Origin: Gracilibacteraceae bacterium
Lineage (GTDB): Bacteria; Bacillota; Desulfitobacteriia; Desulfitobacteriales; Syntrophobotulaceae
DNA: 34,695 nucleotides
Assembly: GCA_031263945.1 (NCBI GenBank)
Contig: JAISEW010000014.1
Span: 1-34,695, forward strand
Reading direction: 5' to 3'
In this document: in pieces, positions 3,283-34,695 of the stretch
How positions within the stretch are numbered: position 1 is the stretch's first letter
Layout: every line of letters starts with the position of its first letter
Notes under the pieces: model-generated
What the model was told of the DNA's origin: nothing
What the model saw: the letters and a program-made list of their open reading frames with translations, nothing else
The model's database searches: none
Made by a program: the position numbers and the translations under genes

Positions 3283-3296
3283 TACAAACTCCTTAC

Positions 3297-20411: not shown

Positions 20412-20466
20412 ACTCCCCACTCCCAACTCTCAACTCTCAACTCTCAACTCTCCACTCCCCCACTCT
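20412..20466. repeat. Degenerate heptanucleotide tandem repeat with four perfect CAACTCT units (20424-20451) and C/T-rich degenerate flanks
   Basis: Read directly: ...CCCACTCC CAACTCT CAACTCT CAACTCT CAACTCT CCACTCC CCCACTC. It ends where the predicted -35 begins. Confidence 0.9.
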
Positions 20467-20494
20467 TGCCCGTCTCCGTTTTTTCCGCTATAAT
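20466..20494 (+). promoter_or_regulatory. Candidate promoter of the 757-aa gene
   Basis: TTGCCC (20466-20471), a 17-nt spacer, then TATAAT (20489-20494), 35 nt upstream of the ATG at 20529. Confidence 0.5.
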
Positions 20495-20528
20495 AATCTA
20501 GGATACCTCTAAAGAAAGCATTGGCGGT

Positions 20529-22802
20529 ATGGGGGTGAAAATCACGTTAAATCATGAAGCGGTTTTTCTGGGTTTGAATGAGCGTCATCCGGCCCAGACC
20601 TTGTTTTTCCGCTTTATCGGCACGGACGAGGACGGGAAAACAGAGGCTTTTCTGACGCGCTTCCGCGATCTGGCCGCCGAAGGGGGGCTGCTGTTCACAG
20701 AGCCGATCCCGGAACCGGGGGCAGGCGAGACGGCCCGTCTGGAGGAGGCGACCGGCGATTTCACTCGCGTCACGGAGCAAACGGTCGTCGCGCATGTGAC
20801 CGTCTGGCTGGCCCAGTTATGGCAGTCGCAGCAAGCGGAAACAGCCAAAGCGGTATGGTCGCTCGTCAAATTCCTCAAAGGACGCGGCACGCGCGAGGAA
20901 ACGCTGCGCTCCGTGTATACAGGTCTGCTCTGCCGCCTCTCGGTCCCCTGCGGTCGTGCCCTGCGCGCGATGGGCAGCGGTGATCCGCCCAAGGTGATGT
21001 ACGAGGGGGAGATCACGGCCCGGGAACTCTATCTGCTTTATACGCTTTCGCTGGCCGGCTGCGACGTGGTATACGCGCATCATAACGAGGAAAGTTATTT
21101 GGCCGCCGACCCGATCGGCCGTTTTTCCTCGCTCGTGCGCGGCTCGGTCTTCACGCCCCGGCCTGCCCGGACGGCCGCGGAGCGGGAAACGTCCGCCGGC
21201 TCGCCGGATCTTCCGGCGCCGGCGGCGGACGCGGCGACGGCGCGGGCGGACGCGGCGCGCACCGCCGGTCTCGTCTGCGTGAACTCCTGGCTTGAGGGCG
21301 GCGACGTTTGGAGCGCGGTCCTGGAAAACGCCGCCCGGCGCGGCGGCCGCGGCCCGGAACGGCGCAATATTTTTTCTCTTTGTTTCGGCGCCGACGAGCG
21401 GGAAGTCTACCGCAACCGCCTTTTCTTCCTGCGGGAAAAACTGCGCGCCTCTGGAAAAAAATGGATGTTAATGACTTTGCGCACCCCGCCCCCGACCGAA
21501 AAAGAAGCGGCGGTTTTTCAGGGAGCGGTCACGCCGGAGGAATTGGCCGCGCGCCTGACCGCCGGTGATGAACTCACGACTCTTCTGGCCCGGCGGGCGC
21601 TGCTCACGCTGCTGGACGAACGGGCGGCGGCGGAAACGGACGGCGGGACGGAAGCGGGCTTGCCGCCGCGGCTGGCCGCCTGGCTCGCGCGTTACGCGGC
21701 GGAGCTGTTCGCCGGAGAAGCGGCGGCGGACGCCCCGCCGATTTTCCTCTATTACGGCCCCATCACGGCGGATGAGACGGATTTGCTTTGGCTGCTGAAA
21801 GAAATCGGCGCCGACGTTCTATATTTCTCGCCGGATAAGGCAGACAGCGAAGTGTTTCACCGCCGCCTGGGGCCGCCGCTCGGGGCGCTGGAGACGGAAC
21901 TGCCGGGCGATTTGCCCTGGGAGCCTTTTCCGGAGGAAGAAATACGTCTGCGGGCGGAAACAACGGCCTACAACGCTTCCCGCGAATTGGACCGCGTTTT
22001 GTACAGCGGTTCCGGCCTTTACCGCCGCCGGCAATTCACCCGCAGCCGGCCGGTGACTCTCAAGACCACCTATGACGAGATCCCCCTGCTCTGGCCGGTC
22101 GAGGCCAAGTACCGCCCCAATTTCCAGGCGGAGGACGGCGTGGCGACGGTGCCGAATATTTTCGCTAAGATCTGCGGCGTGGAAAAAGGCCTGACCGAGA
22201 TGTACTGGGATCGGATCGCCGCCCTGACGACACAGCAGACCTGTCTGGTCACGCGTCTGCCGTTTTTTGCCCGCGCGGGCGCGGCGGAGACGAAGGAGGC
22301 GCGGAATTTCTGGCAGGACGATCAGCTTTCTCCGGACGTGAAAAAAAGTCCCTACTACCGTTACGAGCATCTGTCGCCTGACACGCAGGAACTGTGGCTG
22401 GAAAAAACGCGGGAACTCCTGCGCGGCGATCTGCTGCGTCTGACGGAGGAAGAAAAATTTCAGGCCCTCGCGGTCTTGCTCGCCCTGGAACCGGAGATCC
22501 TGCGCCTAGTGCAGAATTTCGACTATACGGGCGAAGTGCCCAAACTGCTCATAGTCTCGGCGACGGACGCCCTTTTCGCCTTGGAGGACTGCGTTCACGC
22601 CGCTTTTCTCAATATGATCGGCTTTGACGTTGTGATCTTCACGCCGACCGGCAACCGGGACATCGAGACTTATATCGACGCGCGGCATTTTGAGACCCAT
22701 CAGATCGGCGAATATATGCCCGGCCTGAGCCCGCCCGATTTGCGCCGGCGCCGGCTGGGCCTGAAGCCGCAGTCGTGGCTGGGCAAGTTGTTAGGGCGTT
22801 AA
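20529..22802 (+). CDS. Large cytoplasmic protein of unknown function with three internal repeats (possibly YceG-like 'biosynthetic module' family)
   Basis: 757-aa ORF with no TM segments. A three-fold module is visible: PPKVMYEGEITARELYLLYTLSLAGCDVVY / PPIFLYYGPITADETDLLWLLKEIGADVLYF / VPKLLIVSATDALFALEDCVHAAFLNMIGFDVVIF. There is an Ala/Arg/Pro low-complexity linker. The family name is from memory only. Confidence 0.75.
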   Translation: MGVKITLNHEAVFLGLNERHPAQTLFFRFIGTDEDGKTEAFLTRFRDLAAEGGLLFTEPIPEPGAGETARLEEATGDFTRVTEQTVVAHVTVWLAQLWQSQQAETAKAVWSLVKFLKGRGTREETLRSVYTGLLCRLSVPCGRALRAMGSGDPPKVMYEGEITARELYLLYTLSLAGCDVVYAHHNEESYLAADPIGRFSSLVRGSVFTPRPARTAAERETSAGSPDLPAPAADAATARADAARTAGLVCVNSWLEGGDVWSAVLENAARRGGRGPERRNIFSLCFGADEREVYRNRLFFLREKLRASGKKWMLMTLRTPPPTEKEAAVFQGAVTPEELAARLTAGDELTTLLARRALLTLLDERAAAETDGGTEAGLPPRLAAWLARYAAELFAGEAAADAPPIFLYYGPITADETDLLWLLKEIGADVLYFSPDKADSEVFHRRLGPPLGALETELPGDLPWEPFPEEEIRLRAETTAYNASRELDRVLYSGSGLYRRRQFTRSRPVTLKTTYDEIPLLWPVEAKYRPNFQAEDGVATVPNIFAKICGVEKGLTEMYWDRIAALTTQQTCLVTRLPFFARAGAAETKEARNFWQDDQLSPDVKKSPYYRYEHLSPDTQELWLEKTRELLRGDLLRLTEEEKFQALAVLLALEPEILRLVQNFDYTGEVPKLLIVSATDALFALEDCVHAAFLNMIGFDVVIFTPTGNRDIETYIDARHFETHQIGEYMPGLSPPDLRRRRLGLKPQSWLGKLLGR

Positions 22803-22830
22803 GGCGGTTTTGGCAAAGCGGATCCGAGTA

Positions 22831-22854
22831 TATGGAATAATATGGAATAATATG
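22831..22854. promoter_or_regulatory. Tandem 10-nt repeat TATGGAATAA x2.4 immediately upstream of argF (possible ArgR/AhrC operator)
   Basis: Read directly at 22831-22840, 22841-22850 and a partial copy at 22851-22854. The AT-rich TGGAATAAT cores loosely resemble ARG-box half-sites (TGAATAA). Confidence 0.35.
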
Positions 22855-22869
22855 TAAAAGGTGGTCAAA

Positions 22870-23823
22870 ATGGCGGATTTAAGCGCAAAACTGGCGGGGC
22901 GCGACTTTCTGACCTTGCAGGATTTCACGGCGGCGGAAATCAGCGTCTTTATCGCGACGGCCCGCGATCTCAAAGCCCGGCAGAAAGCCGGAACGCCGCA
23001 TCATTTGCTCGCGGGCAAAACTTTGGCGATGATATTCACCAAATCATCGACCCGGACGCGCGTCGCTTTTGAGGTCGGCATTTATCAACTGGGGGGAACG
23101 GCTCTTTTTCTCAGCGAACGGGATATCCAGCTGGGACGGGGCGAATCCGTCGCCGACACGGCCCGCGTCCTCTCCCGCATGGTGGACGGCGTCATGATCC
23201 GCACATTCAGTCACGCGGAAGTGGAAGAACTGGCGCGGCACGCGGCGGTCCCCGTCATCAACGGCCTGACGGACTATCTGCACCCGACTCAGGTCCTGGC
23301 TGATCTGATGACGATCGAGGAACATAAGGGCCGTCTGGCCGGCCTGAAACTGGCTTATATCGGCGACGGCGGTAATGTGGCCCACTCTTTGCTCATCGGC
23401 TGCAGCAAAATGGGTATGGATATCACTTTGGCCTGTCCGGCGGCGTATGAGCCGCGGGAGGAAATACTGCGGGCGGCGCTCGCCAACGGCGCGGAGAGCG
23501 GCAGCCGCGTGCGCCTGGTGCGTGATCCGCTGGAGGCGGCGCGGGATGCCGACGCCCTTTACACCGACGTCTGGGCCAGCATGGGGCAGGAAGGCGAATC
23601 AGCGGAAAGGCGCGCCGCTTTTAAGGGTTATTGCCTGGACGACGCGGCGCTGGCGGCGGCGCGGCCGGACGTTATAGTTTTGCATTGCCTGCCTGCGCAT
23701 AAAGGCGAAGAAATAACGGAAGCGGTTTTTGAAGGCCCGCGCTCCGTGGTGTTCGACGAGGCGGAAAACCGTCTGCACGCTCATAAAGCCGTCATGGCCC
23801 TTTTGATGGGAAACACTGATTAA
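22870..23823 (+). CDS. argF: Ornithine carbamoyltransferase
   Basis: STRTR carbamoyl-phosphate motif ([13 protein letters not shown]), HPTQ motif and HCLPA motif. The ATG at 22870 has AAAGGTGG upstream; the ORF track GTG start is 22861. Confidence 0.95.
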
Positions 23824-23852
23824 ACTATTTAACTAATACGAGGAGAGCAAAT

Positions 23853-25070
23853 ATGGGTAAAAAGGTTGTTTTGGCATACTCCGGCGGTTTAGACACTTCC
23901 GTGATCATCCCCTGGCTGAAGGAAAATTATGGTTATGAAGTTATCGCCATGTCCGCCGATCTGGGACAGGGCGAGGAACTGGAGCCGCTGCGGGCCAAAG
24001 CCCTGCAAAGCGGCGCGGCCAAACTCTACATCGAGGACTTGCGCGAGGAATTTGTCACCGATTATATTTTCCCGACGATCAGGGCCGGCGCCGTATATGA
24101 GGGGGAATACCTGCTCGGCACGGCTTTTGCCCGTCCGCTCATCGCCAAACGGCTGGTGGAGATCGCCCGCCGCGAAGGCGCGGTGGCGGTAGCGCACGGC
24201 GCGACCGGCAAAGGCAATGACCAGGTGCGTTTTGAACTGTCCGTAAAAGCTCTGGATCCGGAGCTGGCAATCATCGCCCCCTGGCGGCTGTGGGACATCC
24301 GCTCGCGCGAGGACGCGATCGACTACGCGGCGGCGCGGGGCATCCCCGTGCCCGTGACCAAAGAAAGCCCGTACAGTCTGGACCGCAATATCTGGCACCT
24401 CAGCCACGAGGGGGGCGATCTGGAAAACCCGTGGAACGCGCCGCGCGACAGCATGTACGCTTTGACGACGCCGCCGCGCCAGGCCCCGGACGAACCGGCC
24501 TATGTGGAAATCGAGTTCACCCGGGGCGACCCGGTGGCCGTCAACGGCGAACAAATGGCGCCTTTGGCCTTGCTGACCAAATTGAACGAAATAGGCGGCG
24601 CTCATGGCGTCGGCATCGTGGACATCGTGGAAAACCGGCTTGTGGGCATGAAATCCCGCGGCGTATACGAAACGCCCGGCGGCGCGATCTTGGTCGCGGC
24701 TCACCGAGCGCTGGAGCGGCTGACGCTGGACCGGACCACGCAGCATTTCAAGGAACAGGCAGCCCTGCGCTACGCGGAACTGGTTTACGACGGTCTATGG
24801 TTTTCCCCGCTGCGCGAGGCCCTGGACGCTTTTGTCGCCGTGACGCAGCGCCAGGTCACAGGAGTGGCGCGCCTGCAGTTATATAAGGGCAATTGCCGCC
24901 CGGCCGGGACGCGATCGCCTTACTCCCTGTACAATGAGGAATTTGTCACCTTCGGCGCCGACGAGGTCTATAATCAGAAGGACGCGGAAGGATTCATCAA
25001 TCTGTTCGGTTTGCCGCTCAAAGTGCGGGCCCTGATGGAAAAGCAGGCCTCCGTTATTCGTTCAAATTAA
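23853..25070 (+). CDS. argG: Argininosuccinate synthase
   Basis: N-terminal PP-loop AYSGGLDTS, plus [13 protein letters not shown] and the rest of the classic ArgG pattern. 405 aa. The RBS is GAGGAG. Confidence 0.95.
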
Positions 25071-25133
25071 GACTTGCGGCCAGAACGCCGTCATATCTTC
25101 AAGTTTCCTTACTCGGCGAGGACATACACCGCC

Positions 25134-26987
25134 TCAATCCGCGCCTTGATACAGCTGGTAATACCGCCCTTTGGCCGCCAGCAGCGACTCGTGGTCGCCG
25201 CGCTCGATCACGCGGCCCTGCTCCATCACCATGATCGCTTTGGCGTTTTGCACGGTGGAGAGGCGGTGGGCGATCACAAAAACCGTGCGCCCTTCCATCA
25301 GGCTGTCCATGCCTTTTTGCACGATAGCCTCCGTGCGCGTGTCGATGCTGGAAGTCGCCTCGTCCAGAATCATCACCGGCGGGCTCAGCACCGCGGCCCT
25401 GGCGATGGAGAGCAGCTGGCGCTGCCCCTGGGAAAGACTGCCGCCGTCGCCGTCGATCACCGTGTCATAACCTTCCGGCAGGCGCTCGATAAAATCATGG
25501 GCGTTCGCCAGCCGCGCGGCCGCGACCACTTCCTCGTCCGTGGCGTCCAGCCGCCCGTAGCGGATGTTTTCCCAGACCGATCCCGTAAAAAGGCGCGTGT
25601 CCTGCAGCACCATGCCCAGCGAGCGGCGGAGGGCGCTTTTGCTGATCTCGCCGATCGGCACTCCGTCAAAGAGGACGACGCCTTCCGTTATTTCATAAAA
25701 ACGGTTCAACAGATTGGTGACCGTCGTTTTACCGGCGCCGGTCGCCCCGACGAAAGCTATCTTCTGGCCGGGTTTCGCGTAAAGAGAAATGTCGCGCAGC
25801 ACGGGTTTGTCCTCGGTATAGCCAAAATTGACCCCCCGGAACTCCACCTGGCCCCGCGCCTCGACATATTCCGCGCCCGTCTCTCCCGGCCGGCGCCAGG
25901 CCCAGCGCGCCGCGGCCGCCTGGCTGGGGGCCAGGATCCCGCCCTTTTCCTCCACTGCCGCCAGCGTCACGACGCCGTCGTCCGTCTCCGTCTCTTCATC
26001 CAATAATTGGAAAATTCTCTCCGCCCCGGCCAACGCCATGACGACGGAGTTGATCTGCATGGAGATCTGGGCGATCGGCATGGCAAAACTGCGGGACAGG
26101 GAAAGAAAGGCCCCGATCGCCCCCAGCGTCACCCCGCCGACGCCGGCCGCGGCCAGAGCGCCGCCCAGCACCGCGATCAGCACATATTGCAGATTGCCGA
26201 TATTGGCCATGATGGGCATGAGGATATTGGCAAACCGGTTGGCCGACGCCGCCTGCCGGGCCAGAGCGTCGTTTTTGGCGTCGAAAACAGCCTTGACCTC
26301 CTCCTCGCGGCAGAAGACCTTCACCACTTTTTGCCCGTTGATCATCTCCTCGATGTAGCCGTTGACTTCGCCGAGCATTTTTTGCTGCGCCATAAAATGC
26401 CTGGCCGAACGACCGCCCACCTGCCGCACCACGAGCAGCATCAGGCCCACGCAGGCAAAAACGAGCAGCGTCAGCGGCGGATTGATCAGCAGCATGGCGC
26501 AAGTGACCGCCACGATCGTGATGGCGGAGGAAAAAGCCTGGGGGATACTCTGGGAGATCATCTGCTGCAAAGTGTCCACATCGTTGGTGTAGCGGCTCAT
26601 CAGGTCGCCGAACGAGTTGCGGTCAAAAAAACGCACGGGCAAGGACTGCATATGGGCGAACATGTCGTCCCGGACTTTTTTCAGCACGCTCTGCGTGATC
26701 GTGACCATCGCCCGGTTGTAAAACAAGGTCGCGGCGATCCCGGCGGCGTAAACCAAAGCCAGCCAGGCCACCGCTCTGGCCAGGGCGCTGAATTCCGGCC
26801 TCTCGCTCAAAAGCAGCGGCGTGATGTAGTCGTCCACCAGAGTTTCGATAAAACCGGAACCGGCCACGCCGGCCACGGAACTGACGATGATGCAGAGAAA
26901 AACGAAGGCCAAAAGCGCCCGGTAGCGGCCGATATAGCGCAAAAGGCGCAGCGCGGTCTTCAGGGGTTCAGAGTTCTTCTTCGTCAA
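25134..26987 (-). CDS. ABC exporter subunit (fused TMD-NBD), canonical-site half of a heterodimer
   Basis: 617 aa, TTG start with AAGGGGG upstream. Walker A is GATGAGKTT, Walker B ILDEATS (Glu present), H-loop IAHRLST. The signature is non-canonical, LSQGQ. Confidence 0.9.
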   Translation of the reverse strand: MTKKNSEPLKTALRLLRYIGRYRALLAFVFLCIIVSSVAGVAGSGFIETLVDDYITPLLLSERPEFSALARAVAWLALVYAAGIAATLFYNRAMVTITQSVLKKVRDDMFAHMQSLPVRFFDRNSFGDLMSRYTNDVDTLQQMISQSIPQAFSSAITIVAVTCAMLLINPPLTLLVFACVGLMLLVVRQVGGRSARHFMAQQKMLGEVNGYIEEMINGQKVVKVFCREEEVKAVFDAKNDALARQAASANRFANILMPIMANIGNLQYVLIAVLGGALAAAGVGGVTLGAIGAFLSLSRSFAMPIAQISMQINSVVMALAGAERIFQLLDEETETDDGVVTLAAVEEKGGILAPSQAAAARWAWRRPGETGAEYVEARGQVEFRGVNFGYTEDKPVLRDISLYAKPGQKIAFVGATGAGKTTVTNLLNRFYEITEGVVLFDGVPIGEISKSALRRSLGMVLQDTRLFTGSVWENIRYGRLDATDEEVVAAARLANAHDFIERLPEGYDTVIDGDGGSLSQGQRQLLSIARAAVLSPPVMILDEATSSIDTRTEAIVQKGMDSLMEGRTVFVIAHRLSTVQNAKAIMVMEQGRVIERGDHESLLAAKGRYYQLYQGAD

Positions 26988-28716
26988 AATCGCCCCCTTT
27001 CCGCTGCGAATGATAAACTTCCCGGTAAAGCTCGCTGCCGCGCATGAGTTCGGCGTGGGGGCCGACCGCCTGCACCCGGCCTCCGTCCAGCACGACGATC
27101 TTGTCGGCGTCCTGCACGGAAGCGACGCGCTGGGCGATGATCAGCTTGGTCATGGCCGGCAGTTCCTCGCGGAGCGCCCGGCGCAACGCGGCGTCTGTCC
27201 GCGTGTCCACGGCGCTGGTCGAATCGTCCAGGATCAGGATCTTCGGTTTTTTCAGCAGGGCGCGGGCGATGCACAGCCGCTGTTTCTGCCCGCCGGAAAT
27301 ATTGGCGCCGCCCTGCTCGATCACGGAGTCATAGCCGTCGGGCAGAGCGCGGATAAAAGCGTCGGCCTGGGCCAAGCGGCAGGCCCGGACCATTTCTTCC
27401 TCGCCGGCGTCTTCATTGCCCCAGCGCAGATTGTCTTTGACCGTACCGGAAAAAAGCTCGTTTTTCTGCAGCACCACCGCGACCTCGTCGCGCAAGACCC
27501 GCAGATCGTACTCGCGCACGTCGCGGCCGCCCACCTCCACCGCGCCGCCCGTCACGTCGTATAAGCGGGAAATAAGCTGGATCAGGCTGGTCTTGCCGCT
27601 GCCGGTGCCGCCGAGTATGCCGACGGTCTCCCCCGGGGCCACGGACAAGTCAATCCCGTCCAGACACGGTTTGCCGCCCGCGCCGCCGTAGCTGAAACTG
27701 GCGCCGCGAAAAGCCAGCGAGCCGTCCGGGACGACCGTCGCCGCCCCCGGTTCGCTGGTCAGGTCAGATTCCGCCGCCAGCACTGCCGCGATCCTCTCGG
27801 CGGAAGCGCGGGAGATGACGATCATGACAAAAAGCATCGACAGCATCATCAGGCTGAACAGGATCTGCATGGCGTAGGTAAACATGCTCATGAGCTGGCC
27901 GGTGGTCATGGCGCCGCCCACGATCAGCCGCGCCCCGATCCAGGCGATCAGCAGCATGCAGATGTACATGCAGAACTGCATCAGCGGCATGGCCAGAGCC
28001 ATCCTTTTCCCGGCCTTGGACATATCGGCGAAAATGGACTCAGAAACGCGCCCAAATTTTTCCTTCTCATAATCTTCGCGCACGAAGGATTTGACCACCC
28101 GGATGCCGCGCACGTTTTCCCGCACGATCTTGTTCAGGTGGTCGTAAGTGGTGAAAACCCGCATGAATATGGGGTGGACATGCCGCAGGATCAAGTAGAC
28201 GGCCAGCGCCAGCACCGGCACCGCCGCCAGGAAAACCAGCGAAAGCGTGGCCTGGACGCGAAAAGCCATGGCAAAGGCCAGCGTCAGCATCAAAGGGCTG
28301 CGCACCGCCATGCGCAGCAGCATCTGGAAGGCCATTTGCACATTCGTGACGTCGGAGGTGAGACGCGTGACCAGACTTTCTGTGGTAAATTTATCCAGCT
28401 GGCGGAAGGAAAAAGTCTGGATATTATAAAACATGGCCCGCCGAAGGTTGCGGGCAAACCCGGCGGAGGCGGAGGCGGCAAAAGAACCGCTCAGCACGCC
28501 GCAGAGCAGCGCCAGCGCCGCGCAGACAGTCAGGACAGCGCCCATTTTCCAAATATAATCGGTCTGTCCGCCGTCTATCCCGATGTCGATCAGACCCGCC
28601 ATCAAAAAAGGGATGACGACCTCCATGACGACCTCGCCGCCCATGAACAGCGGCGAAAGCCAGGCGTCCCGCTTATATTGCCCAATACAGCGGAGCAGAC
28701 GTTTTATCAATCCCAT
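26968..28716 (-). CDS. ABC exporter subunit (fused TMD-NBD), degenerate-site half of a heterodimer
   Basis: 582 aa. Walker A is GGTGSGKTS and the signature ISGGQ. Walker B is ILDDSTS (Asp replaces the catalytic Glu) and the H-loop is IAQRVAS (Gln replaces His). It overlaps the partner gene by 20 nt. Confidence 0.9.
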   Translation of the reverse strand: MGLIKRLLRCIGQYKRDAWLSPLFMGGEVVMEVVIPFLMAGLIDIGIDGGQTDYIWKMGAVLTVCAALALLCGVLSGSFAASASAGFARNLRRAMFYNIQTFSFRQLDKFTTESLVTRLTSDVTNVQMAFQMLLRMAVRSPLMLTLAFAMAFRVQATLSLVFLAAVPVLALAVYLILRHVHPIFMRVFTTYDHLNKIVRENVRGIRVVKSFVREDYEKEKFGRVSESIFADMSKAGKRMALAMPLMQFCMYICMLLIAWIGARLIVGGAMTTGQLMSMFTYAMQILFSLMMLSMLFVMIVISRASAERIAAVLAAESDLTSEPGAATVVPDGSLAFRGASFSYGGAGGKPCLDGIDLSVAPGETVGILGGTGSGKTSLIQLISRLYDVTGGAVEVGGRDVREYDLRVLRDEVAVVLQKNELFSGTVKDNLRWGNEDAGEEEMVRACRLAQADAFIRALPDGYDSVIEQGGANISGGQKQRLCIARALLKKPKILILDDSTSAVDTRTDAALRRALREELPAMTKLIIAQRVASVQDADKIVVLDGGRVQAVGPHAELMRGSELYREVYHSQRKGGDFDEEEL

Positions 28717-28783
28717 GGCTCACCTCGCCGCTTTCTCGCTCTTAAAGAAATACCCGCCCGGTTGGTCGGTCAGGCAACTTCAT

Positions 28784-28812
28784 ATTGTAGCCTGTTTTAG
28801 CGGAGGCGTCAA
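28784..28812 (-). promoter_or_regulatory. Promoter of the ABC exporter operon
   Basis: The minus strand reads TTGACG (28812..28807), a 17-nt spacer, then TACAAT (28789..28784), about 70 nt upstream of the ATG at 28716. Confidence 0.65.
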
Positions 28813-28937
28813 GCAATTTTTATAAAAGGGATATTTAGGTAAAACTGGGTTGTGTTGATAGTTGACGTTGCCCGCGGGACGCGGCATAAACGCGATAGGC
28901 GCGATAGCCAGGTTGGTTTGACGGGCCGTCGAAAAAT

Positions 28938-28966
28938 TTGACAAAAAAAATACCGCCATGTATAAT
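28938..28966 (+). promoter_or_regulatory. Perfect-consensus sigma-70/SigA promoter at the left edge of the low-GC island
   Basis: TTGACA (28938-28943), a 17-nt spacer, then TATAAT (28961-28966) with TG immediately upstream of the -10. It faces the GIY-YIG/DGQHR/PAPS-reductase operon, about 230 nt upstream of its first ATG. Confidence 0.7.
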
Positions 28967-29194
28967 CAAGATACAATAGCTATTTGACCTCGCCGCGAAA
29001 TGCAACTTCGGTTTAACAAATCTTATCGTAATTGAATCCGCACATACACAACAGCAGGTTATTGCCCCCGAAAACATAATCGCCGAGCTGGGCACGCAAC
29101 CAAATGCCAAAGACGTTTTATACTTACGGATACATTGACAGAAGCACGATCGATATTGATGAAATCATGGATAAGGCCAGAAGGAGGATGAGCG

Positions 29195-29713
29195 ATGGGA
29201 GAAATTGACCTTGTTGGCGCCAATATCGCCCTGTCAAGTATTCAATTTATACTAAACACTACTTTGTGGGATAGCTTTAATCCGAAGGTTATGAGCATTA
29301 TCTCACAGCCGCAGTCCTGGCGCGAAGTAAAACTGCTTGCTCCCGATGGAAAAAGTAATCCGCAGCTTCGTACAATCCCAAACGACAAAGGCGGCATATA
29401 TTTGATTCTGGCCAAACCAAACATTTTGCCTGAATCGTGCCTGTACTTAATGTACATTGGACGCGCTCATATAACGGCAGATCACAATTTAAGAAAACGC
29501 TGTTCGCAATATCCCACGGAAAAAGAACGCCCTAAGATAAAGCGACTGATTGAGCAATGGGGGCGATATTTATATGTCAGATACCTCCCGTTAGACGGCA
29601 ATGACATAATAGACGTTGTCGAAGACGAACTTATCAATATAATCCTGCCTCCTTTCAATGACAGGATACCAAATAAAAAAATAAGCGCTGCGGTCAAAGC
29701 GTTTGCCATGTAA
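29195..29713 (+). CDS. GIY-YIG domain nuclease-like protein
   Basis: 172 aa with AGGAGG 7 nt upstream. Motifs in order: GGIYLILAK (GIY), LMYIGRA (YIG), LRKR (conserved Arg region), EDELINIILPPFND (catalytic Glu ... Asn). Confidence 0.75.
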   Translation: MGEIDLVGANIALSSIQFILNTTLWDSFNPKVMSIISQPQSWREVKLLAPDGKSNPQLRTIPNDKGGIYLILAKPNILPESCLYLMYIGRAHITADHNLRKRCSQYPTEKERPKIKRLIEQWGRYLYVRYLPLDGNDIIDVVEDELINIILPPFNDRIPNKKISAAVKAFAM

Positions 29714-29726
29714 AGGGGTGTGAAAT

Positions 29727-30998
29727 ATGAAAATACCGGCCATACGCGCTAAAGTTGGAATATGGGTTTACTATGTTTCAACACTGACTTACGCGCAGGT
29801 TAAAGAACATGTTAAAATGGTGGACAAGGAACTCCATAAATCGGCTGTTCTCAGTGAAATGCTGCAGCGGAGCATAACAAACAACTATAAACAAATTGCC
29901 GCCTATATCATGCAGCAGGAGGAGCGTTTTTTCAATTCTCTGGTGCTGGCTGTATATGACGGCGACCCGCAATGGCATGAAATCCGCTTGGATTATGGCG
30001 ACGACGAAGAATACTACGATATCGGGCTGCTTGAGTTAACGGGCGAAGAAAAAATCTTTCCTGTGGACGGGCAGCACCGCGTTGAGGGCATTAAAAAAGT
30101 TCTCCGCGAATCTGATCAGTTTAACGAAGAACGTATTCCGGTGATTTTTATCGGTCACAGAAACGACGACGACGGCATGAAACGCGCGAGAAGACTGTTC
30201 AGCACTCTGAACCGTTACGCAAAACCGGTTTCCCAAAGAGATATCATCGCCCTTGACGAAGACGATTCTGTAGCCATCGCTTCGCGCGAGCTGATTGAAA
30301 ATCATCCGTTATTTGAAAACGAGCGGATATTGGATTCTAAGACCAAGGCTATTCCCGAAAACAATAAAAAAGCGTTTACAACGATCATCACTTTTTATGA
30401 GTGTAATTATGAGTTGATGCATCTTTTCCTAGAGTCCAGGACGGTGAAAGATTCTGACGGAAGGAAAATGCGCGGGCGCTCAAAGGCAAGAGAGTATATC
30501 CGATTCAGGCCGGATCAGCCGGAGCTTGACGGATTTATCAGCCTGTGCGTTGATTTTTGGAATGCCGTTTCCTCTGAAATTTCCTGCGTTCGCGAGTATC
30601 TGGCCGCGGCTCCCGCCGCCGAACGCTTCCGTAACAAGGTTGACGGGGGCTTATTGCCGTTTCGGCCCGCCGCCTTGATTCCTCTCGTTAAGGCGGTCGT
30701 TCATATCCATAAAAAAACCGGAGAATCATTTAATGAAGTGCTTCGAAAAATTAATACACTGCCTTTAAAAATATCTGACAATATTTGGGCCGGAATCCTT
30801 TGGGATAAAAATAACCAGAAAATGATCATGAATCACCAAAAGGTTGTTGAGCTTTGTCTTGTTCTTCTCTATGATCCCGCGTTATCATCAGAAAAAGAAA
30901 AGCAACATTTGGTGGATGGATATGCTTCCGCAACTCAAACGCGCAAAGAAGAGGCTGAAAGCGCGTTGGGTATCTGCGTAACGAAAAGTGATACCTGA
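29727..30998 (+). CDS. DGQHR-domain protein (DndB-like, ParB/Srx fold)
   Basis: 423 aa. It has the literal DGQHR motif in FPVDGQHRVEGI, the downstream RRLFSTLNRYAKPVSQRDIIALDEDD motif as in DndB, and the N-terminus IPAIRAKVGIWVYYVSTLTYAQV typical of the family. Confidence 0.8.
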   Translation: MKIPAIRAKVGIWVYYVSTLTYAQVKEHVKMVDKELHKSAVLSEMLQRSITNNYKQIAAYIMQQEERFFNSLVLAVYDGDPQWHEIRLDYGDDEEYYDIGLLELTGEEKIFPVDGQHRVEGIKKVLRESDQFNEERIPVIFIGHRNDDDGMKRARRLFSTLNRYAKPVSQRDIIALDEDDSVAIASRELIENHPLFENERILDSKTKAIPENNKKAFTTIITFYECNYELMHLFLESRTVKDSDGRKMRGRSKAREYIRFRPDQPELDGFISLCVDFWNAVSSEISCVREYLAAAPAAERFRNKVDGGLLPFRPAALIPLVKAVVHIHKKTGESFNEVLRKINTLPLKISDNIWAGILWDKNNQKMIMNHQKVVELCLVLLYDPALSSEKEKQHLVDGYASATQTRKEEAESALGICVTKSDT

Positions 30999-31037
30999 GC
31001 AGTTGCGTATTTGATAAACCTGAAAAGAGGATTGACC

Positions 31038-32768
31038 ATGTGGTGCAATAGTTGTCACCGCGAGACGACGAAAGATAAATGCGAACTTTGCGGGACGGAA
31101 ACCGAACGGGAAATCCCTCTTGAAGTTTATTGGTGTTCGACCTGCAGAGTTCCCGTGATTAAATACGTAAGCGCTGTTGACCGTGACGCTTGCCCTGCTT
31201 GCGGTAGGGAGACTGAATATTTATGCGCCGATTTACGCCCCGTGTTCCCGGAGGAACGTCTGCTATTTGAGATAATCCAAGGGAAGCCGCTCGCGCACAT
31301 CAATCATAGCGTTTGGGCATCGAACAACCGTTATTATATAGACGGAAAGCCGCTTGTGATTGGTTCGTCTTTCTATAAGAAACTCTCACCTGACGCGATA
31401 CGGACACAACTTGAAAAATATGCACCCAATAACTGCTATGAAGACTTCGACGCAATGGTTGTGCGCTTTGTCGAGGCGAACAAAGTTCGGCTTGACGAAA
31501 TCGTCAGTGAAGCCCATAGCTTCATAAAAGATACCGCCGCGCAATATCCGAACGAGAGCGTTGTCGTCTCGTTTTCGGGCGGCAAGGATTCTACCGTTAC
31601 AGCGGACTTGGCTATACGCGTTCTCGGTGATCCATGCCTTGTGCATGTCTTTGGGAACACAACGCTGGAGTTCCCTATGACGCTTGATTATGCCGCCCGT
31701 TATCGCAGGGACAATCCAAAAGCTATATTTAAGACCGCCATAAATAACGAACAGGATTTTTATTCCGTCTGTGAAGACATTGGCCCACCCGCGAGAATGT
31801 TACGTTGGTGTTGCTCAATGTTCAAAACGGGACCTATTACGCGCGTATTGAACAGGTTGTACGACGACAGCGGCATATTGTCATTCTACGGCATACGCAA
31901 GTGCGAGTCGCTTTCCCGAAGTCGTTATAACCGCGTGGAAGACAATGCAGAGTCGGTGAAGATTCAAAAGCAGAAAGTCGCCTCGCCGATTTTTCTGTGG
32001 AAAGACATTGACGTGTGGCTGTATATCCTCGGCGAGGGTATAGACTTCAATGACGCTTACCGTATCGGCTATGACCGCGTGGGGTGTTGGTGCTGTCCGA
32101 ATAACAACGCGAGGGCGCAGTTTCTCTCGAAAATCTATATGCCGGTGCAGTTTGATAAGTGGCGCAACTTTCTTGTTGGCTTCGCAAAACGCATCGGCAA
32201 GCCCGATGCGGAGGAGTATATTGACAGCGGCGCGTGGAAAGCGCGGCAGGGAGGCAACGGCGTGGCGGCGGCGCAGGACATTAAAATCCGCTACACGAAT
32301 TGCACGACCGAAGCACACGCGAAAGTTTATCGGCTAAACAAGCCGATTGATAACAGCTTTAGCAATCTTTTTATACCGCTCGGGCGTATTGCGCCCGAAC
32401 TGGGACGAAAACTCATAAATGAGATTATGGTTGTGGATGTGAATACGAACGTGCCGATACTTTCGATACAACCGTTCGCACAGGACGGGTATGACTACGC
32501 TGTCAAAGTCAAGACGCTAAACGTAGCGAGGCACGACGATTTACAGCGAATGGTCGGCTATCAGATAAAAAAGTACAACGCTTGCCGGAAGTGCTTAAAA
32601 TGCGAGTCGCTTTGCCGGCACAGGGCAATTTCTATTGTCGGCGGTGAATACCACATCAGCAATGAGCGGTGCAAGCGGTGCAAAATGTGCGTAACAGCGA
32701 AATACCTTGAGGGCGGTTGCCTGATGGATAAGTATTTGAAAACGAAAACAGGGGCGGCGAGTATATGA
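31038..32768 (+). CDS. PAPS-reductase-family PP-loop ATP pyrophosphatase (DndC/SspD/BrxP-like) fused to an N-terminal double zinc ribbon and a C-terminal 2x[4Fe-4S] ferredoxin-like motif
   Basis: ATG at 31038 (the ORF track begins at 31011). N-terminal CNSC-x9-CELC and CSTC-x17-CPAC. PP-loop VVSFSGGKDST. GCWCCP motif. C-terminal CRKCLKCESLC and CKRCKMC...C. Confidence 0.85.
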   Translation: MWCNSCHRETTKDKCELCGTETEREIPLEVYWCSTCRVPVIKYVSAVDRDACPACGRETEYLCADLRPVFPEERLLFEIIQGKPLAHINHSVWASNNRYYIDGKPLVIGSSFYKKLSPDAIRTQLEKYAPNNCYEDFDAMVVRFVEANKVRLDEIVSEAHSFIKDTAAQYPNESVVVSFSGGKDSTVTADLAIRVLGDPCLVHVFGNTTLEFPMTLDYAARYRRDNPKAIFKTAINNEQDFYSVCEDIGPPARMLRWCCSMFKTGPITRVLNRLYDDSGILSFYGIRKCESLSRSRYNRVEDNAESVKIQKQKVASPIFLWKDIDVWLYILGEGIDFNDAYRIGYDRVGCWCCPNNNARAQFLSKIYMPVQFDKWRNFLVGFAKRIGKPDAEEYIDSGAWKARQGGNGVAAAQDIKIRYTNCTTEAHAKVYRLNKPIDNSFSNLFIPLGRIAPELGRKLINEIMVVDVNTNVPILSIQPFAQDGYDYAVKVKTLNVARHDDLQRMVGYQIKKYNACRKCLKCESLCRHRAISIVGGEYHISNERCKRCKMCVTAKYLEGGCLMDKYLKTKTGAASI

Positions 32769-33655
32769 GCGTTAAATATAGGGCGCACGATACTTTTTTC
32801 ATAAGAAAAGGCTGGCTCAGTAAAGGCGTGAAGAATATCATAGTCGACCCCGCCGTCTTTGTGAGCCGCGACGCGAACCCGATGGATACGCTCGGCATGG
32901 GCGCGAATATGGTTAAGGCTCTCCGCTACTGGTTGCTGGCGGTAGGGCTGACGGAAGAATACAAAGGACTTAATAACCGCAACGAACAAAAGCTTACGCT
33001 TCTCGGCGAAATGGTTCACGAAAACGACCCGTATATGGAGGAACTTGGCACACTGTGGCTTCTGCATTATAGACTTGCCGCGAACAAAGAAGATGCTACG
33101 GCGTGGTATTTTTTCTTTAACGAGTTTCGTTCGCTGGAATTCACGCGTGATGATTTTATAATACAGACAGAGAATTATCTGCGCGAGCTTGACGAAACCG
33201 TAGCAGAGCGGTCGATTGAGGATGATTACAATTGCGTCATCAATACCTATATACCGCGAATCAAACTCAATCCCAAGAAATTCGACCCGGAGGACAACAT
33301 TGACTGTCCGCTCGGTGAGTTGGGCCTGATTGACATTGTGAACAAGAAGGCTAAAGTATATAAGAAAAGTTCGCCGAAGAAAGACACGCTCCACCCACTG
33401 ATTCTGCTTGCCGTTATACTCGACCAAGCAAACGGAGCGCGGGAGGTTCGTATATCAGAGATTCAGACTAACGCTCGCAATGTCGGAAAAGTGTTCAATC
33501 TGGATGTAATCGCGCTGACCGCATTGCTGTACAAATTGGAAATTTTAGGGTTTATTAAGGTGGTGCGGACAGCGGGGCTTGATGTTATAAAAATCGAAAC
33601 CGACCTTGACTTCTATGGGAGCGTTCGCGAATATTACCGCGCTATCAACGGATAG
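32765..33655 (+). CDS. DUF4007-like protein (SspB-like by my recollection)
   Basis: 296 aa. The N-terminus HDTFFIRKGWLSKG matches the remembered DUF4007 signature (tF-x-lR-x-gWL-x-K). An ATGA overlap couples it to the PAPS-reductase gene. Confidence 0.65.
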   Translation: MSVKYRAHDTFFIRKGWLSKGVKNIIVDPAVFVSRDANPMDTLGMGANMVKALRYWLLAVGLTEEYKGLNNRNEQKLTLLGEMVHENDPYMEELGTLWLLHYRLAANKEDATAWYFFFNEFRSLEFTRDDFIIQTENYLRELDETVAERSIEDDYNCVINTYIPRIKLNPKKFDPEDNIDCPLGELGLIDIVNKKAKVYKKSSPKKDTLHPLILLAVILDQANGAREVRISEIQTNARNVGKVFNLDVIALTALLYKLEILGFIKVVRTAGLDVIKIETDLDFYGSVREYYRAING

Positions 33656-33677
33656 GACTGTGAGGTGATAATGGGTT

Positions 33678-34695
33678 ATGCCATTGAATAAAATCAGCGT
33701 TGCTAAGGGATTTCAGACCGCCGTCAACATCGCTTATGACTTAAATAACAATGACAAGGTGCGCGGGTTTATCCCTACGCAGTCGAGTCTTGATATAATT
33801 GAGGATGTGCTGCTCTCTACCGCCGCGAGCGCAACGACTCGCGCCCGTATACTGATTGGCGCGTATGGCAGAGGCAAGTCACACATAGTCCTCGTGCTTT
33901 TGGCGCTCTTGTTCGGCAGAGACAAAGGGCTATTTGCCGCGCTTTTGGAGAAAATGAAGAAGAACAATCCGCCGCTGTATGAGTTTGCGGTTGAGTATCT
34001 GGACAGTGGTCGTCAATTGTTGCCTGTGGTCGTGCGCGGAAGCAGCGCAAGCCTGTCCTCGTCATTTTTGAGCGCGTTGCAACTGACGCTGAATGATGAG
34101 GGCTTATCTGATGTTATGCCCGAAACGCACTTTCAAGCGGCAATCGCAACAATTGAGAGTTGGAAGAAGTCTTACCCTAACACCTACAAGCAGTTGATAA
34201 AGGATTTGCCTTGCTCAATCGGCGACTTCATGTTAGCACTCCGTGAATATGATGTTTTCGCTTATGAGCGATTTGAGAGTATCTACCCGCAATTAACGTC
34301 AGGCAGCGCGTTCAACCCGTTTCTCGGATTTAATATTGCCGAACTTTACGAGAGCGTTACAAAAGGTGTTAAGGCGCGAGGGTACGGTGGCATCATTGTC
34401 GTATATGATGAGTTCAGCAAGTATTTGGAATCAAGTATCGCCACCGCGTCTATCAGCGATATTAAGCTGCTACAGGACTTTGCGGAGAAATGTGACCGCA
34501 GCGGTGAACGGCAAATGCACCTACTTCTTATTTGTCATAAGGACATCGCCAACTACATTGACGGCGGTCTCCCGAAAGAAAAGGTGGACGGTTGGCGCGG
34601 CGTTTCAGGGCGATTTAAGCATATCAACCTCCACAACAACTACACGCAGATGTATGAGATTATTTCGGAGGTTGTAAAAAAAGACTATAAATTTT
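33678..34695 (+). CDS. P-loop ATPase, BrxC/PglY/SspC (DUF499)-like, 5' partial (continues beyond the window)
   Basis: Not in the supplied ORF track. I translated it by hand from the ATG at 33678 (GAGGTG 10 nt upstream) and it stays open for 339 codons to the window end. Walker A is IGAYGRGKSH and Walker B IIVVYDEFSKY. Confidence 0.8.
   Translation, partial: MPLNKISVAKGFQTAVNIAYDLNNNDKVRGFIPTQSSLDIIEDVLLSTAASATTRARILIGAYGRGKSHIVLVLLALLFGRDKGLFAALLEKMKKNNPPLYEFAVEYLDSGRQLLPVVVRGSSASLSSSFLSALQLTLNDEGLSDVMPETHFQAAIATIESWKKSYPNTYKQLIKDLPCSIGDFMLALREYDVFAYERFESIYPQLTSGSAFNPFLGFNIAELYESVTKGVKARGYGGIIVVYDEFSKYLESSIATASISDIKLLQDFAEKCDRSGERQMHLLLICHKDIANYIDGGLPKEKVDGWRGVSGRFKHINLHNNYTQMYEIISEVVKKDYKF

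What the first reader, a model, noticed from the sequence alone, without database searches (positions are those of the whole stretch)
28938..34695. Low-GC island with a five-gene DNA-modification/defence-like operon mixing Dnd, Ssp and type-4 BREX parts
From about 28.8 kb the DNA becomes visibly more AT-rich than the flanking housekeeping genes (judged by eye, not computed). A perfect consensus promoter precedes five co-directional ORFs separated by 13, 39, -4 and 22 nt. They are: (1) a GIY-YIG nuclease-like protein; (2) a DGQHR/DndB-like ParB-fold protein; (3) a PP-loop PAPS-reductase-family enzyme like DndC/SspD/BrxP; (4) a DUF4007-like protein; (5) a BrxC/DUF499-style P-loop ATPase cut by the window edge. 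As I recall, PAPS reductase plus DUF4007 plus a DUF499 ATPase is the SspD/SspB/SspC core of single-strand phosphorothioation systems. PAPS reductase plus BrxC is the hallmark of type-4 BREX, and DndB plus DndC belongs to Dnd. This locus combines all three and adds a stand-alone GIY-YIG nuclease. No cysteine desulfurase, PglZ, BrxL, SspE or DndFGH is visible inside the window. It is therefore either an unusual Ssp/BREX-4 variant or an undescribed hybrid modification-restriction system.
Basis: partly seen in the sequence, partly recalled or inferred. Interest (0 to 1): 0.9.

Follow-up and report, generated by a model that had tools for sequence, protein, structure and literature searches.

The report
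Phosphorothioate DNA-modification island with portable nuclease cassette
This is the front end of a horizontally acquired Ssp-type system that puts sulfur into the DNA backbone, a known kind of phage defence; it is headed by an uncharacterised two-gene cassette (a GIY-YIG nuclease and a DndB-like protein) that moves between Ssp and BREX type 4 systems.

Summary
GC falls from 0.62 to 0.47, a perfect sigma-70 promoter sits at 28938-28966, and five co-directional genes follow.

Genes 3-5 are sspD (a long, BrxP-like form), sspB (DUF4007) and the first 339 residues of sspC. This is an Ssp phosphorothioate (PT) writer, not BREX type 4 and not Dnd. The BREX resemblance is homology that is already published: BrxP is an SspD-SspB fusion and BrxC is an SspC homologue.

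In 25 of 25 related genomes with sequence downstream, sspC is followed by a cysteine desulfurase (sspA). A Pbe-like restriction module follows in 21 and a helicase-HATPase-PLD set in 3. None has PglZ or BrxL.

Genes 1-2 are the interesting part. They encode a GIY-YIG nuclease with an invariant catalytic set and a DGQHR (DndB-like) ParB-fold protein. In 60 of 63 metagenome loci the two genes are adjacent. In 48 of 50 long loci they lie beside Ssp, Pbe or BREX-4 genes, at varying positions.

A sister genome, 94% identical in the flanks, carries the same cassette at the same site but followed by BREX-4. The locus is therefore a mosaic.

I found no paper describing this cassette. Its most likely role is a PT-linked auxiliary nuclease, a split analogue of SspE. 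A DndB-like regulator role is the main rival.

The parts
28717..29194 (+). Left edge of the island: intergenic region and about 230 nt of leader. GC is 0.46.
   Evidence: It is 94% identical to the same region in sister genomes L125 and L126.
28938..28966 (+). Perfect sigma-70 promoter TTGACA-17-TATAAT, the likely operon promoter.
   Evidence: 12 of 12; 2 matches in the window, 0 expected from shuffles. Both hexamers are conserved in L125 and L126. Function was not tested.
29195..29713 (+). Gene 1: 172-aa free-standing GIY-YIG nuclease with a 60-residue N-terminal extension. AGGAGG lies at 29182-29187.
   Evidence: 35 of 37 homologues hit PF20815. The AF2 model has pLDDT 88.8. The top six PDB fold hits are the UvrC GIY-YIG domain, probability 1.0, TM 0.72-0.76. 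G66 G67 Y69, Y87 G89 R90, R102, Y106, E143 and N155 are invariant.
29727..30998 (+). Gene 2: 423-aa DGQHR-domain, DndB-like ParB-fold protein. It is not an orthologue of DndB.
   Evidence: PF14072 scores 116.7 bits (cut-off 29.1) and TIGR03187 102 bits (cut-off 58.85). The DndB equivalog TIGR03233 scores only 74 bits against a cut-off of 328. The DGQHR, FSTLNRYAKPV and ALDEDD motifs are invariant. The fold search gives a weak ParB N-domain hit, probability 0.93.
30986..31037 (+). Recombination junction. Homology to the BREX-4-linked cassette ends here and homology to the split Ssp clade begins.
   Evidence: blastn: L125 and L126 match up to 30985, L045 up to 30963, and L002 from 31041 onward.
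31038..32768 (+). Gene 3: sspD, the long form. It has N-terminal CxxC zinc ribbons, a PAPS-reductase/PP-loop domain and a C-terminal Cys-rich region resembling a 4Fe-4S ferredoxin. An alternative TTG start lies at 31011.
   Evidence: PAPS_reduct 2e-26, Fer4 weak. BrxP 1.7e-72 over profile positions 22-517 of 779, SspD 2e-9. 71-76% identical to the sspD of L002 and L006, and 25-28% to BrxP. PMC12839542 describes this architecture for BrxP and 'a subset of SspD'.
32765..33655 (+). Gene 4: sspB (DUF4007, a triple-wHTH DNA-binding/nicking subunit). It overlaps sspD by 4 nt.
   Evidence: DUF4007 4.6e-81. PADLOC SspB 6e-60. PDB 6JUF SspB 6e-26.
33678..34695 (+). Gene 5: sspC, an ORC/Cdc6-like P-loop ATPase (Walker A GAYGRGKSH). 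Only the first 339 of about 1200 codons are present; the window end cuts it.
   Evidence: SspC 5.8e-38 against BrxC 5.6e-19. 70-82% identical to 1070-1251-aa SspC proteins in 37 genomes. 21% identical to BrxC.

Best explanation
The region is the first 5.8 kb of a horizontally acquired phosphorothioate (PT) DNA-modification and defence island. It is inserted next to an ABC-transporter gene in the chromosome of a Gracilibacteraceae-like Firmicute.

Genes 3-5 are sspD, sspB and sspC. By analogy with characterised Ssp and BREX-4 systems (inferred, not tested here), a cysteine desulfurase supplies sulfur and SspD, a PP-loop ATP pyrophosphatase, passes it on. The desulfurase would be sspA, expected just beyond the window end, or a housekeeping enzyme. 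SspB and the SspC ATPase select and open the DNA site, and a non-bridging backbone oxygen is replaced by sulfur. A restriction module that reads this mark, most probably Pbe-like (an HKD-helicase plus a CxC ABC ATPase), is expected downstream of sspA.

Genes 1-2 are a separate, portable cassette. They are a catalytically intact GIY-YIG nuclease and a DGQHR ParB-fold protein, translationally coupled and transcribed first from a consensus promoter.

My preferred mechanism for the cassette is inferred. It would be an auxiliary PT-linked nuclease, a split analogue of SspE/GmrSD. In SspE a ParB-fold NTPase domain senses PT-marked DNA or nucleotide state and licenses a nuclease to nick DNA. Here the GIY-YIG protein would take the place of the HNH domain.
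For: Core genes: HMM and solved-structure matches for SspD, SspB and SspC.

Synteny: 37 related genome loci share the order sspD-sspB-sspC-sspA. A Pbe-like module follows in 21 of 25 and a helicase-HATPase-PLD set in 3 of 25.

PT synthesis by SspBCD and by BrxP/BrxC is experimentally established in PMC12914056 and PMC8092258.

Cassette:
- The GIY-YIG fold and an invariant catalytic set are present.
- The DGQHR motif is invariant.
- The GIY-YIG gene lies directly upstream of the DGQHR gene in 60 of 63 metagenome loci, with gaps of -4 to +15 nt.
- 48 of 50 loci of at least 8 kb carry Ssp, Pbe or BREX-4 genes.
- Five further contexts found from GIY-YIG homologues of 36-52% identity (four look-ups) are all next to Ssp genes.
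- Nearly identical cassettes (80-89%) serve writers that are only 21-28% identical, including at the same chromosomal site. This points to recognition of a shared product, PT-DNA, rather than of a specific partner protein.

SspE is a ParB-fold NTPase plus nuclease, described as the equivalent of DndB in PMC10853773. About 84% of sspBCD loci lack any known restriction partner (PMC8092258).
Against: - The window ends inside sspC, so sspA and the restriction module are inferred from relatives only.
- No biochemical data exist for the cassette.
- DndB, the only characterised relative of gene 2, is a regulator and not an effector.
- The cassette usually co-occurs with a full restriction module, so it is not needed as the sole effector.
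- In one locus (L117) a GmrSD/SspE-like gene sits right beside it.
- In the sister genomes L125 and L126 the nuclease domain is deleted while the DGQHR gene stays intact. The DGQHR protein may therefore have a function of its own.
- Gene 2 does not match the GmrSD_N/DUF262 model, and its structural matches in the PDB are weak.
- Locus counts include near-duplicate metagenome contigs, so they are not independent.
Confidence: 0.55

Rival explanations
1. The cassette is a governor of modification in the manner of DndB. Gene 2 would bind the operon promoter or leader, or consume ATP, to limit PT density. The GIY-YIG partner would have a subsidiary role.
For: - Gene 2 matches Pfam DndB over the full model length.
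- DndB is a documented ATP-modulated autoregulator encoded first in dndBCDE (PMC4507180; cited in PMC10853773).
- In the window and in L045, L049, L050 and L125 the cassette is first in the operon, and in the window, L125 and L126 it lies behind a consensus promoter with a 230-nt leader.
- The DGQHR gene survives loss of the nuclease domain in L125 and L126.
Against: - In most loci the cassette sits mid-operon (between sspC and sspA) or at the 3' end after the Pbe genes, not at a promoter.
- The nuclease partner is retained in 60 of 63 loci with an invariant catalytic set. A pure regulator does not need one.
- Gene 2 scores far below the DndB equivalog cut-off.
- Many loci carry separate small HTH genes upstream of sspD.
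Confidence: 0.27
2. The cassette is an accessory part of the writing machinery. It would be a nickase plus a ParB-like ATPase that helps insert the modification, as DpdB does for 7-deazaguanine insertion.
For: - DpdB is described as a ParB-like ATPase that drives base insertion (as summarised in PMC12839542).
- The cassette is tightly linked to PT writers of three architectures.
Against: - Only about 4 of 25 genome loci of this Ssp clade carry it.
- BrxP plus BrxC and a cysteine desulfurase suffice for PT synthesis (PMC12914056).
- SspB is already the reported nickase.
- The nuclease is deleted in L125 and L126, next to an intact BREX-4 operon.
Confidence: 0.08
3. The cassette is a selfish free-standing homing-endonuclease element that invades ssp and brx operons and gives the host no benefit.
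For: - GIY-YIG enzymes include free-standing homing endonucleases.
- The cassette sits at many different intergenic positions inside otherwise conserved operons, and its GC3 differs from that of genes 3-5.
Against: - At least six different insertion contexts in three operon types do not fit a site-specific homing enzyme.
- The cassette is always co-directional and tightly spaced with its neighbours.
- Gene 1 has no recognisable DNA-binding domain.
- Both genes are conserved from 36% to 89% identity across several phyla.
Confidence: 0.06
4. The locus is a BREX type 4 variant with a split BrxP, and PglZ and BrxL follow beyond the window end.
For: - Gene 3's best PADLOC hit is BrxP.
- Genes 1-2 are closest to cassettes that head BREX-4 operons, one of them at the same site in a sister genome.
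- sspBCD next to brxCZL has been reported in some genomes (PMC12914056).
Against: - Genes 3-5 are 70-82% identical to the split Ssp clade and 21-28% to BrxP and BrxC.
- None of the 25 clade relatives has PglZ, and all 25 have sspA next.
- DNA homology to the BREX-4 sister locus stops exactly at the end of gene 2.
Confidence: 0.04

Closest known systems
SspABCD PT-modification system (Vibrio cyclitrophicus FF75, E. coli 3234/A; SspABCD-SspE and SspABCD-SspFGH)
   Same: It has separate PAPS-reductase (SspD), DUF4007 (SspB) and ORC/Cdc6-like ATPase (SspC) genes. Gene 4 matches the solved SspB structure. Relatives carry sspA next to sspC.
   Different: - The gene order is D-B-C-A, not B-C-D.
- SspD is the long BrxP-like form, with zinc ribbons and a ferredoxin-like Cys cluster.
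- There is no SspE or SspFGH; relatives pair with Pbe-like genes instead.
- A GIY-YIG/DGQHR cassette is added.
BREX type 4 (BrxP-BrxC-PglZ-BrxL), shown to make PT in Bacteroides salyersiae (PMC12914056)
   Same: The writer is homologous: BrxP is an SspD-SspB fusion and BrxC is an SspC homologue. The same GIY-YIG/DGQHR cassette heads true BREX-4 operons (L045, L049, L050, L125).
   Different: SspD and SspB are split, at 25-28% identity to BrxP. The ATPase is about 1200 aa in relatives, against about 1395 aa for BrxC, at 21% identity. No relative of this clade has PglZ or BrxL.
PbeABCD / CxC-ABC ATPase systems (Xiong 2019; re-analysed in PMC10853773)
   Same: Relatives of this locus carry PbeA (HKD plus SF2 helicase, PADLOC 4e-253), PbeC, and a small protein that hits the PbeD model only weakly (E 6.6e-4), directly after sspA.
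   Different: Pbe was described with DndCDEA, whereas here it is coupled to Ssp genes. Many loci add a sigma-70-like protein at the end. None of this module lies inside the window.
DndB (DGQHR protein of dndBCDE)
   Same: Gene 2 matches the Pfam DndB model over its full length and carries the DGQHR motif. In the window it is near the head of the operon.
   Different: It scores below the DndB equivalog threshold (74 against 328 bits). It accompanies Ssp and BREX-4 systems, not DndCDE. It is almost always paired with a GIY-YIG nuclease, which DndB is not.
SspE / GmrSD / BrxU (ParB-fold DUF262 NTPase fused to an HNH nuclease)
   Same: The logic is the same: a ParB-superfamily domain with a DGQ(Q/H)R motif combined with a DNA nuclease, encoded beside a DNA-modification system.
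   Different: It is two proteins rather than one. The nuclease is GIY-YIG, not HNH. Gene 2 has no significant match to the DUF262 model. PT-sensing activity is untested.

Membership tests
Ssp PT-modification system (SspABCD) | SspD: a stand-alone PAPS-reductase/PP-loop protein | tested here: met
   PF01507 at 2e-26, PADLOC SspD 2e-9 and BrxP 1.7e-72. It is a separate ORF.
Ssp PT-modification system (SspABCD) | SspB: a stand-alone DUF4007 protein | tested here: met
   PF13182 at 4.6e-81, PADLOC SspB 6e-60, PDB 6JUF SspB 6e-26.
Ssp PT-modification system (SspABCD) | SspC: a large P-loop ATPase of about 1000-1200 aa | tested here: inconclusive
   The N-terminal 339 aa match SspC at 5.8e-38 and are 70-82% identical to SspC proteins, full-length in most of the 37 related loci. 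The rest lies beyond the window end.
Ssp PT-modification system (SspABCD) | SspA cysteine desulfurase, adjacent or supplied in trans | not testable with these tools
   It is not in the window. It is present directly after sspC (or after the cassette) in 25 of 25 relatives. Attempts to extend the contig failed.
Ssp PT-modification system (SspABCD) | Produces phosphorothioate in DNA | not testable with these tools
   This needs LC-MS/MS or PT-seq.
BREX type 4 | BrxP: a single protein fusing PAPS reductase and DUF4007 (about 760-810 aa) | tested here: not met
   There are two ORFs with a 4-nt overlap. They are 25-28% identical to the BrxP proteins of L045 and L125.
BREX type 4 | BrxC of the BREX-4 type (about 1395 aa) | tested here: not met
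   SspC models score better than BrxC models (5.8e-38 against 5.6e-19). Identity to the L125 BrxC is 21%. Full-length relatives are mostly about 1200-1250 aa.
BREX type 4 | PglZ and BrxL present | not testable with these tools
   They would lie beyond the window end. None of the 25 clade relatives has them. They are present in the sister locus L125, but its homology to the window ends at gene 2.
Dnd system (DndABCDE) | DndC equivalog | tested here: not met
   TIGR03183 scores 22.9 bits against a cut-off of 290.4.
Dnd system (DndABCDE) | DndD/DndE pair | tested here: not met
   No such ORFs lie in 28938-34695.
Dnd system (DndABCDE) | DndB equivalog | tested here: not met
   TIGR03233 scores 74.1 bits against a cut-off of 328. 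Only the broader DGQHR domain (TIGR03187) and Pfam DndB thresholds are passed.
GIY-YIG nuclease superfamily (gene 1) | GIY...YIG motifs, catalytic Arg, metal-binding Glu and Asn, on the alpha/beta GIY-YIG fold | tested here: met
   Y69, Y87, R102, E143 and N155 are invariant in 37 sequences and align with the UvrC residues. PF20815 is hit by 35 of 37 members. The fold search returns the UvrC GIY-YIG domain at probability 1.0. The window protein alone has no HMM hit.
SspE / GmrSD type IV enzymes | DUF262 (GmrSD_N) domain plus DUF1524 HNH domain | tested here: not met
   Genes 1 and 2 hit neither Pfam model. The resemblance is one of functional logic only.

The most novel reading that the evidence does not exclude
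The GIY-YIG/DGQHR cassette would be a new, portable class of PT-linked restriction effector, joining SspE, SspFGH, DndFGH and Pbe. It would read the phosphorothioate mark itself. It could therefore be plugged into any PT writer (SspBCD, long-SspD Ssp, or BREX type 4). That would explain why nearly identical cassettes sit beside writers that are only 21-28% identical, and why most sspBCD loci seem to lack a restriction partner.
Probability: 0.3. Interest if true: 0.6.

Novelty: new variant of a known kind. Interest (0 to 1): 0.45.

Why it matters
The core of this locus adds nothing new. It is an Ssp phosphorothioate writer, and its kinship with BREX type 4 was published in 2026.

The value lies in the cassette. 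A conserved nuclease plus ParB-fold pair tracks PT writers of three different architectures and is exchanged between them, here at one chromosomal site in two near-identical genomes.

About 84% of sspBCD loci have no known restriction partner (PMC8092258), and how PT marks are read remains poorly understood. A small two-protein module that works with unrelated writers would be a simple system for studying PT recognition. It could also account for some of the apparently orphan Ssp systems.

The window and L125 form a natural experiment in module swapping within defence islands.

Tried and rejected
Extending the contig:
- Exact-protein look-ups gave only a 2.5-kb contig for gene 4 and nothing for gene 2.
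- A homologue search with the sspC fragment returned only fragments of 79% identity or less.
- What follows sspC is therefore inferred from relatives.

Searches that found nothing:
- Rfam and tRNA scans of the window gave no hits, so no tRNA integration site was found.
- The repeat scan of the leader showed nothing notable.
I used the DGQHR alignment instead.

Weak structural evidence for gene 2:
- The PDB sequence search gave nothing.
- The fold search gave only a weak ParB N-domain match.
- No structural link to SspE or DndB could be shown.

Ideas considered and rejected:
- That genes 1-2 are SspF/G/H. The paper shows SspFGH are a Walker-A protein, an unannotated protein and an FtsK-like protein with no such domains.
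- Membership of BREX type 4 and of Dnd (see the membership tests).

Gene 1 alone has no hit in Pfam, PADLOC or NCBIfam. Family-level and structural evidence was needed to place it.

Literature searches for the pair found only a general remark that URI/GIY-YIG nucleases occur at the borders of Dnd loci (PMC10853773). Supplementary tables of those papers were not searched.


Full report

Yes.
- GC is 0.470 over 28938-34695, against 0.616 for the genes immediately to the left (20529-28716). Third-position GC is 0.45-0.58 in the five genes and 0.70-0.75 in the flank.
- A 12-of-12 TTGACA-17-TATAAT promoter lies at 28938-28966. This exact pattern occurs twice in the window and never in 100 shuffles.
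- An AGGAGG lies 7 nt before the first ATG.
- Five co-directional ORFs follow, with gaps of 13, 39, -4 and 22 nt. The last ORF runs off the window end.

**2. What the five genes are**

- Gene 2 is a DGQHR-domain, DndB-like protein. Pfam DndB gives 1.5e-33 and TIGR03187 is above its cut-off. The DndB equivalog model scores 74 bits against a cut-off of 328.
- Gene 3 has a PAPS-reductase domain (2e-26). Its best PADLOC match is the N-terminal two-thirds of BrxP (1.7e-72, profile positions 22-517 of 779). SspD and DndC hits are weaker. The sequence also shows N-terminal CxxC pairs and a C-terminal Cys-rich, ferredoxin-like tail. PMC12839542 describes this architecture for BrxP and for 'a subset of SspD'.
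- Gene 4 is DUF4007/SspB (4.6e-81) and matches the solved SspB structure 6JUF at 6e-26.
- Gene 5 (339 residues) matches SspC models at 5.8e-38 and BrxC models at 5.6e-19.
- Gene 1 has no direct HMM hit. However, 35 of 37 homologues match Pfam GIY_YIG_2. An AlphaFold model (pLDDT 88.8) finds the UvrC GIY-YIG domain as its six best PDB matches, at probability 1.0 and TM 0.72-0.76. The residues equivalent to the catalytic set (Y69, Y87, R102, E143, N155) are invariant across the family.

**3. What lies beyond the window**

The contig could not be extended, so I used relatives.

A scan of one genome per species with the gene 5 fragment gave 37 loci in Bacillota, Bacteroidota, Victivallaceae, Helicobacteraceae and Caldisericota. 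Their conserved order is long sspD, sspB, sspC (mostly about 1200-1250 aa), then a cysteine desulfurase (SspA/DndA). Two kinds of module follow:
- PbeA (HKD nuclease plus SF2 helicase, PADLOC 4e-253), PbeC, a small protein that only weakly matches the PbeD model (E 6.6e-4), and often a sigma-70-like protein.
- In three loci, a helicase, a GHKL ATPase and a PLD nuclease.

Of the 25 loci with sequence after sspC, all have sspA. Twenty-one have the Pbe-like set, three have the alternative set, and none has PglZ.

Genes 3-5 of the window are 70-82% identical to this clade. The window therefore holds the front of an Ssp writer whose usual partner is a Pbe-like restriction module.

**4. Why it looked like a mixture**

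Two 2026 papers show that BrxP is in effect an SspD-SspB fusion and that BrxC is an SspC homologue. They also show that BREX type 4 makes PT (PMC12914056; PMC12839542). The BREX-4 signal is therefore homology, not a mixture of parts.

In the window the PAPS reductase and DUF4007 are separate genes. They are only 25-28% identical to BrxP, and the ATPase is 21% identical to BrxC. Nothing Dnd-specific is present apart from the DGQHR domain.

**5. The cassette formed by genes 1-2**

The pair occurs in only 4 of the 25 clade loci with sequence downstream of sspC. There it sits between sspC and sspA, not upstream of sspD.

Distant homologues of gene 1 (36-52% identity) gave five further contexts from four look-ups. 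In every one, the GIY-YIG gene is next to a DndB-like gene and beside Ssp genes. These include canonical sspB-sspC-short sspD loci.

A metagenome scan seeded with the DGQHR protein, and so not biased toward Ssp, gave 80 loci.
- The GIY-YIG gene is directly upstream in 60 of the 63 loci with room for it, at gaps of -4 to +15 nt.
- 48 of the 50 loci of at least 8 kb contain Ssp, Pbe or BREX-4 genes.
- The cassette's position varies. It is found between sspC and sspA, after the Pbe block, convergent with canonical sspBCD, or before or after true BREX-4 operons. In those operons PADLOC gives BrxP 6.5e-255, BrxC 0, PglZ 1e-269 and BrxL 2.5e-215.
- Some of these contigs are near-duplicates, so the counts are not independent events.

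**6. A natural swap**

The closest relative of gene 2 (89% identity) comes from a Gracilibacteraceae MAG.
- Its contig (L125) is about 94% identical in DNA to the window from 20360 to 29394. That stretch covers the YceG-like, ornithine carbamoyltransferase, argininosuccinate synthase and two ABC-transporter genes, the intergenic region and the promoter.
- It is 89.7% identical over gene 2. Homology stops at the end of gene 2.
- Downstream, L125 carries an unknown 594-aa protein, BrxP, BrxC and PglZ.

So the same chromosomal site in two close genomes holds the same cassette followed by either an Ssp writer or a BREX-4 system.
- GC3 also differs between genes 1-2 (0.45-0.49) and genes 3-5 (about 0.57).
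- L127 carries an 82%-identical DGQHR gene in the mid-operon Ssp-Pbe position.
- In L125 and L126 a deletion of about 300 nt removes the GIY-YIG catalytic domain but leaves the DGQHR gene intact.

**7. Mechanism**

Shown:
- Gene identities and synteny.
- The mobility of the cassette.
- Its tight linkage to PT writers.
- Conservation of the nuclease and DGQHR active-site residues.

Inferred:
- The writer makes PT as published Ssp and BREX-4 systems do.
- The cassette's role. Because nearly identical cassettes accompany writers of 21-28% identity, I think it acts on something the writers share. The most obvious candidate is PT-marked DNA.

SspE, GmrSD and BrxU join a ParB-fold NTPase to a nuclease, and PMC10853773 treats SspE as the equivalent of DndB. 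The cassette has the same logic, split into two proteins and with GIY-YIG in place of HNH. I therefore favour an auxiliary PT-linked nuclease, at about 0.4 within the overall reading.

The main rival is a DndB-like governor of PT level or transcription (0.27). It is supported by the operon-first position here and by survival of the DGQHR gene without the nuclease. Roles as a writer accessory, a selfish homing element, or part of a hidden BREX-4 continuation are less likely.

**8. Novelty**

The Ssp core and its kinship with BREX-4 are known. Coupling of Ssp to Pbe-like genes is evident from the PADLOC models, though I did not find it discussed in the literature.

I found no description of the GIY-YIG/DGQHR cassette. 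The nearest is a general note that URI/GIY-YIG nucleases occur at the borders of Dnd loci. SspFGH are unrelated to it.

I rate the finding a new variant of a known kind, with moderate interest.

Noticed in passing
L125:9777-10004 and L126:2103-2330 (equivalent to window 29195-29713): In two sister contigs about 94% identical to the window flank, roughly 300 nt inside the GIY-YIG gene are deleted. A 75-aa remnant keeps only the N-terminal extension, while the DGQHR gene stays intact. BREX-4 follows in L125 (594-aa protein, BrxP, BrxC, PglZ); the shorter L126 ends inside the gene after the 587-aa protein.
   Followed up: partly
L045:2214-4400, L125:11300-13084, L002:709-1941 (absent from the window): An unknown protein family of 410-730 aa has no Pfam or PADLOC hit. 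It recurs next to the PAPS-reductase gene of both BREX-4 loci and the closest split-Ssp relative (34-38% identity among the closer members; the L102 copy is about 20%). It may be another shared accessory of PT writers.
   Followed up: partly
L022:8040-9065, L038:8031-9062, L056; L127:3433-4497; L015:13610-14938: Other genes are inserted at the same intergenic slots of the Ssp operon. They are a RelA/SpoT-like protein (PADLOC PDC-S33, 1e-113) or a DUF2806 protein between sspD and sspB, and an Mrr-type nuclease between sspC and sspA. The operon appears to be a hotspot for accessory defence genes.
   Followed up: partly
L008:16030-17154, L063:8278-9405 and many other loci: A sigma-70-like protein (regions 2, 3 and 4; PADLOC MzaA-like, 6e-32) is conserved as the last gene of the Pbe-like module attached to Ssp. 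In a minority of loci an unrelated protein of about 330-376 aa replaces it.
   Followed up: no
L117:7171-9462: A GmrSD/SspE-like protein (GmrSD_N 1e-25, GmrSD_C 2e-9) sits directly upstream of the GIY-YIG/DGQHR pair, beside canonical sspBCD. In L039, L097, L101 and L123 that position holds a protein of about 800 aa with a weak GHKL-ATPase hit.
   Followed up: no
window 3696-3724 (-) and 1274-3767: A second perfect TTGACA-17-TATAAT promoter lies in another low-GC patch (GC 0.43-0.45). It is upstream of an XRE-type HTH ORF (3297-3767, -) and a 122-aa ORF. Nearby, at 1274-1546 and 1539-1850 (+), are two small overlapping ORFs that look by eye like a Phd/YefM-RelE/ParE toxin-antitoxin pair. None of these was tested with HMMs.
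   Followed up: no
L014:13606-17076: In Desulfallas sp. Bu1-1 a 426-aa ORF on the opposite strand separates the GIY-YIG gene from the DGQHR gene. It may be an insertion sequence. This is the only locus where the pair is split.
   Followed up: no
window 4580-28716: The rest of the window is ordinary chromosomal DNA. It encodes an EamA transporter, FAD oxidoreductases, an ETF alpha subunit, a LuxR-type regulator, an AcrB/HlyD efflux pair, a glycosyltransferase, a YceG-like protein, ornithine carbamoyltransferase, argininosuccinate synthase and two ABC exporters. The island is therefore chromosomal and not on a plasmid or phage.
   Followed up: partly
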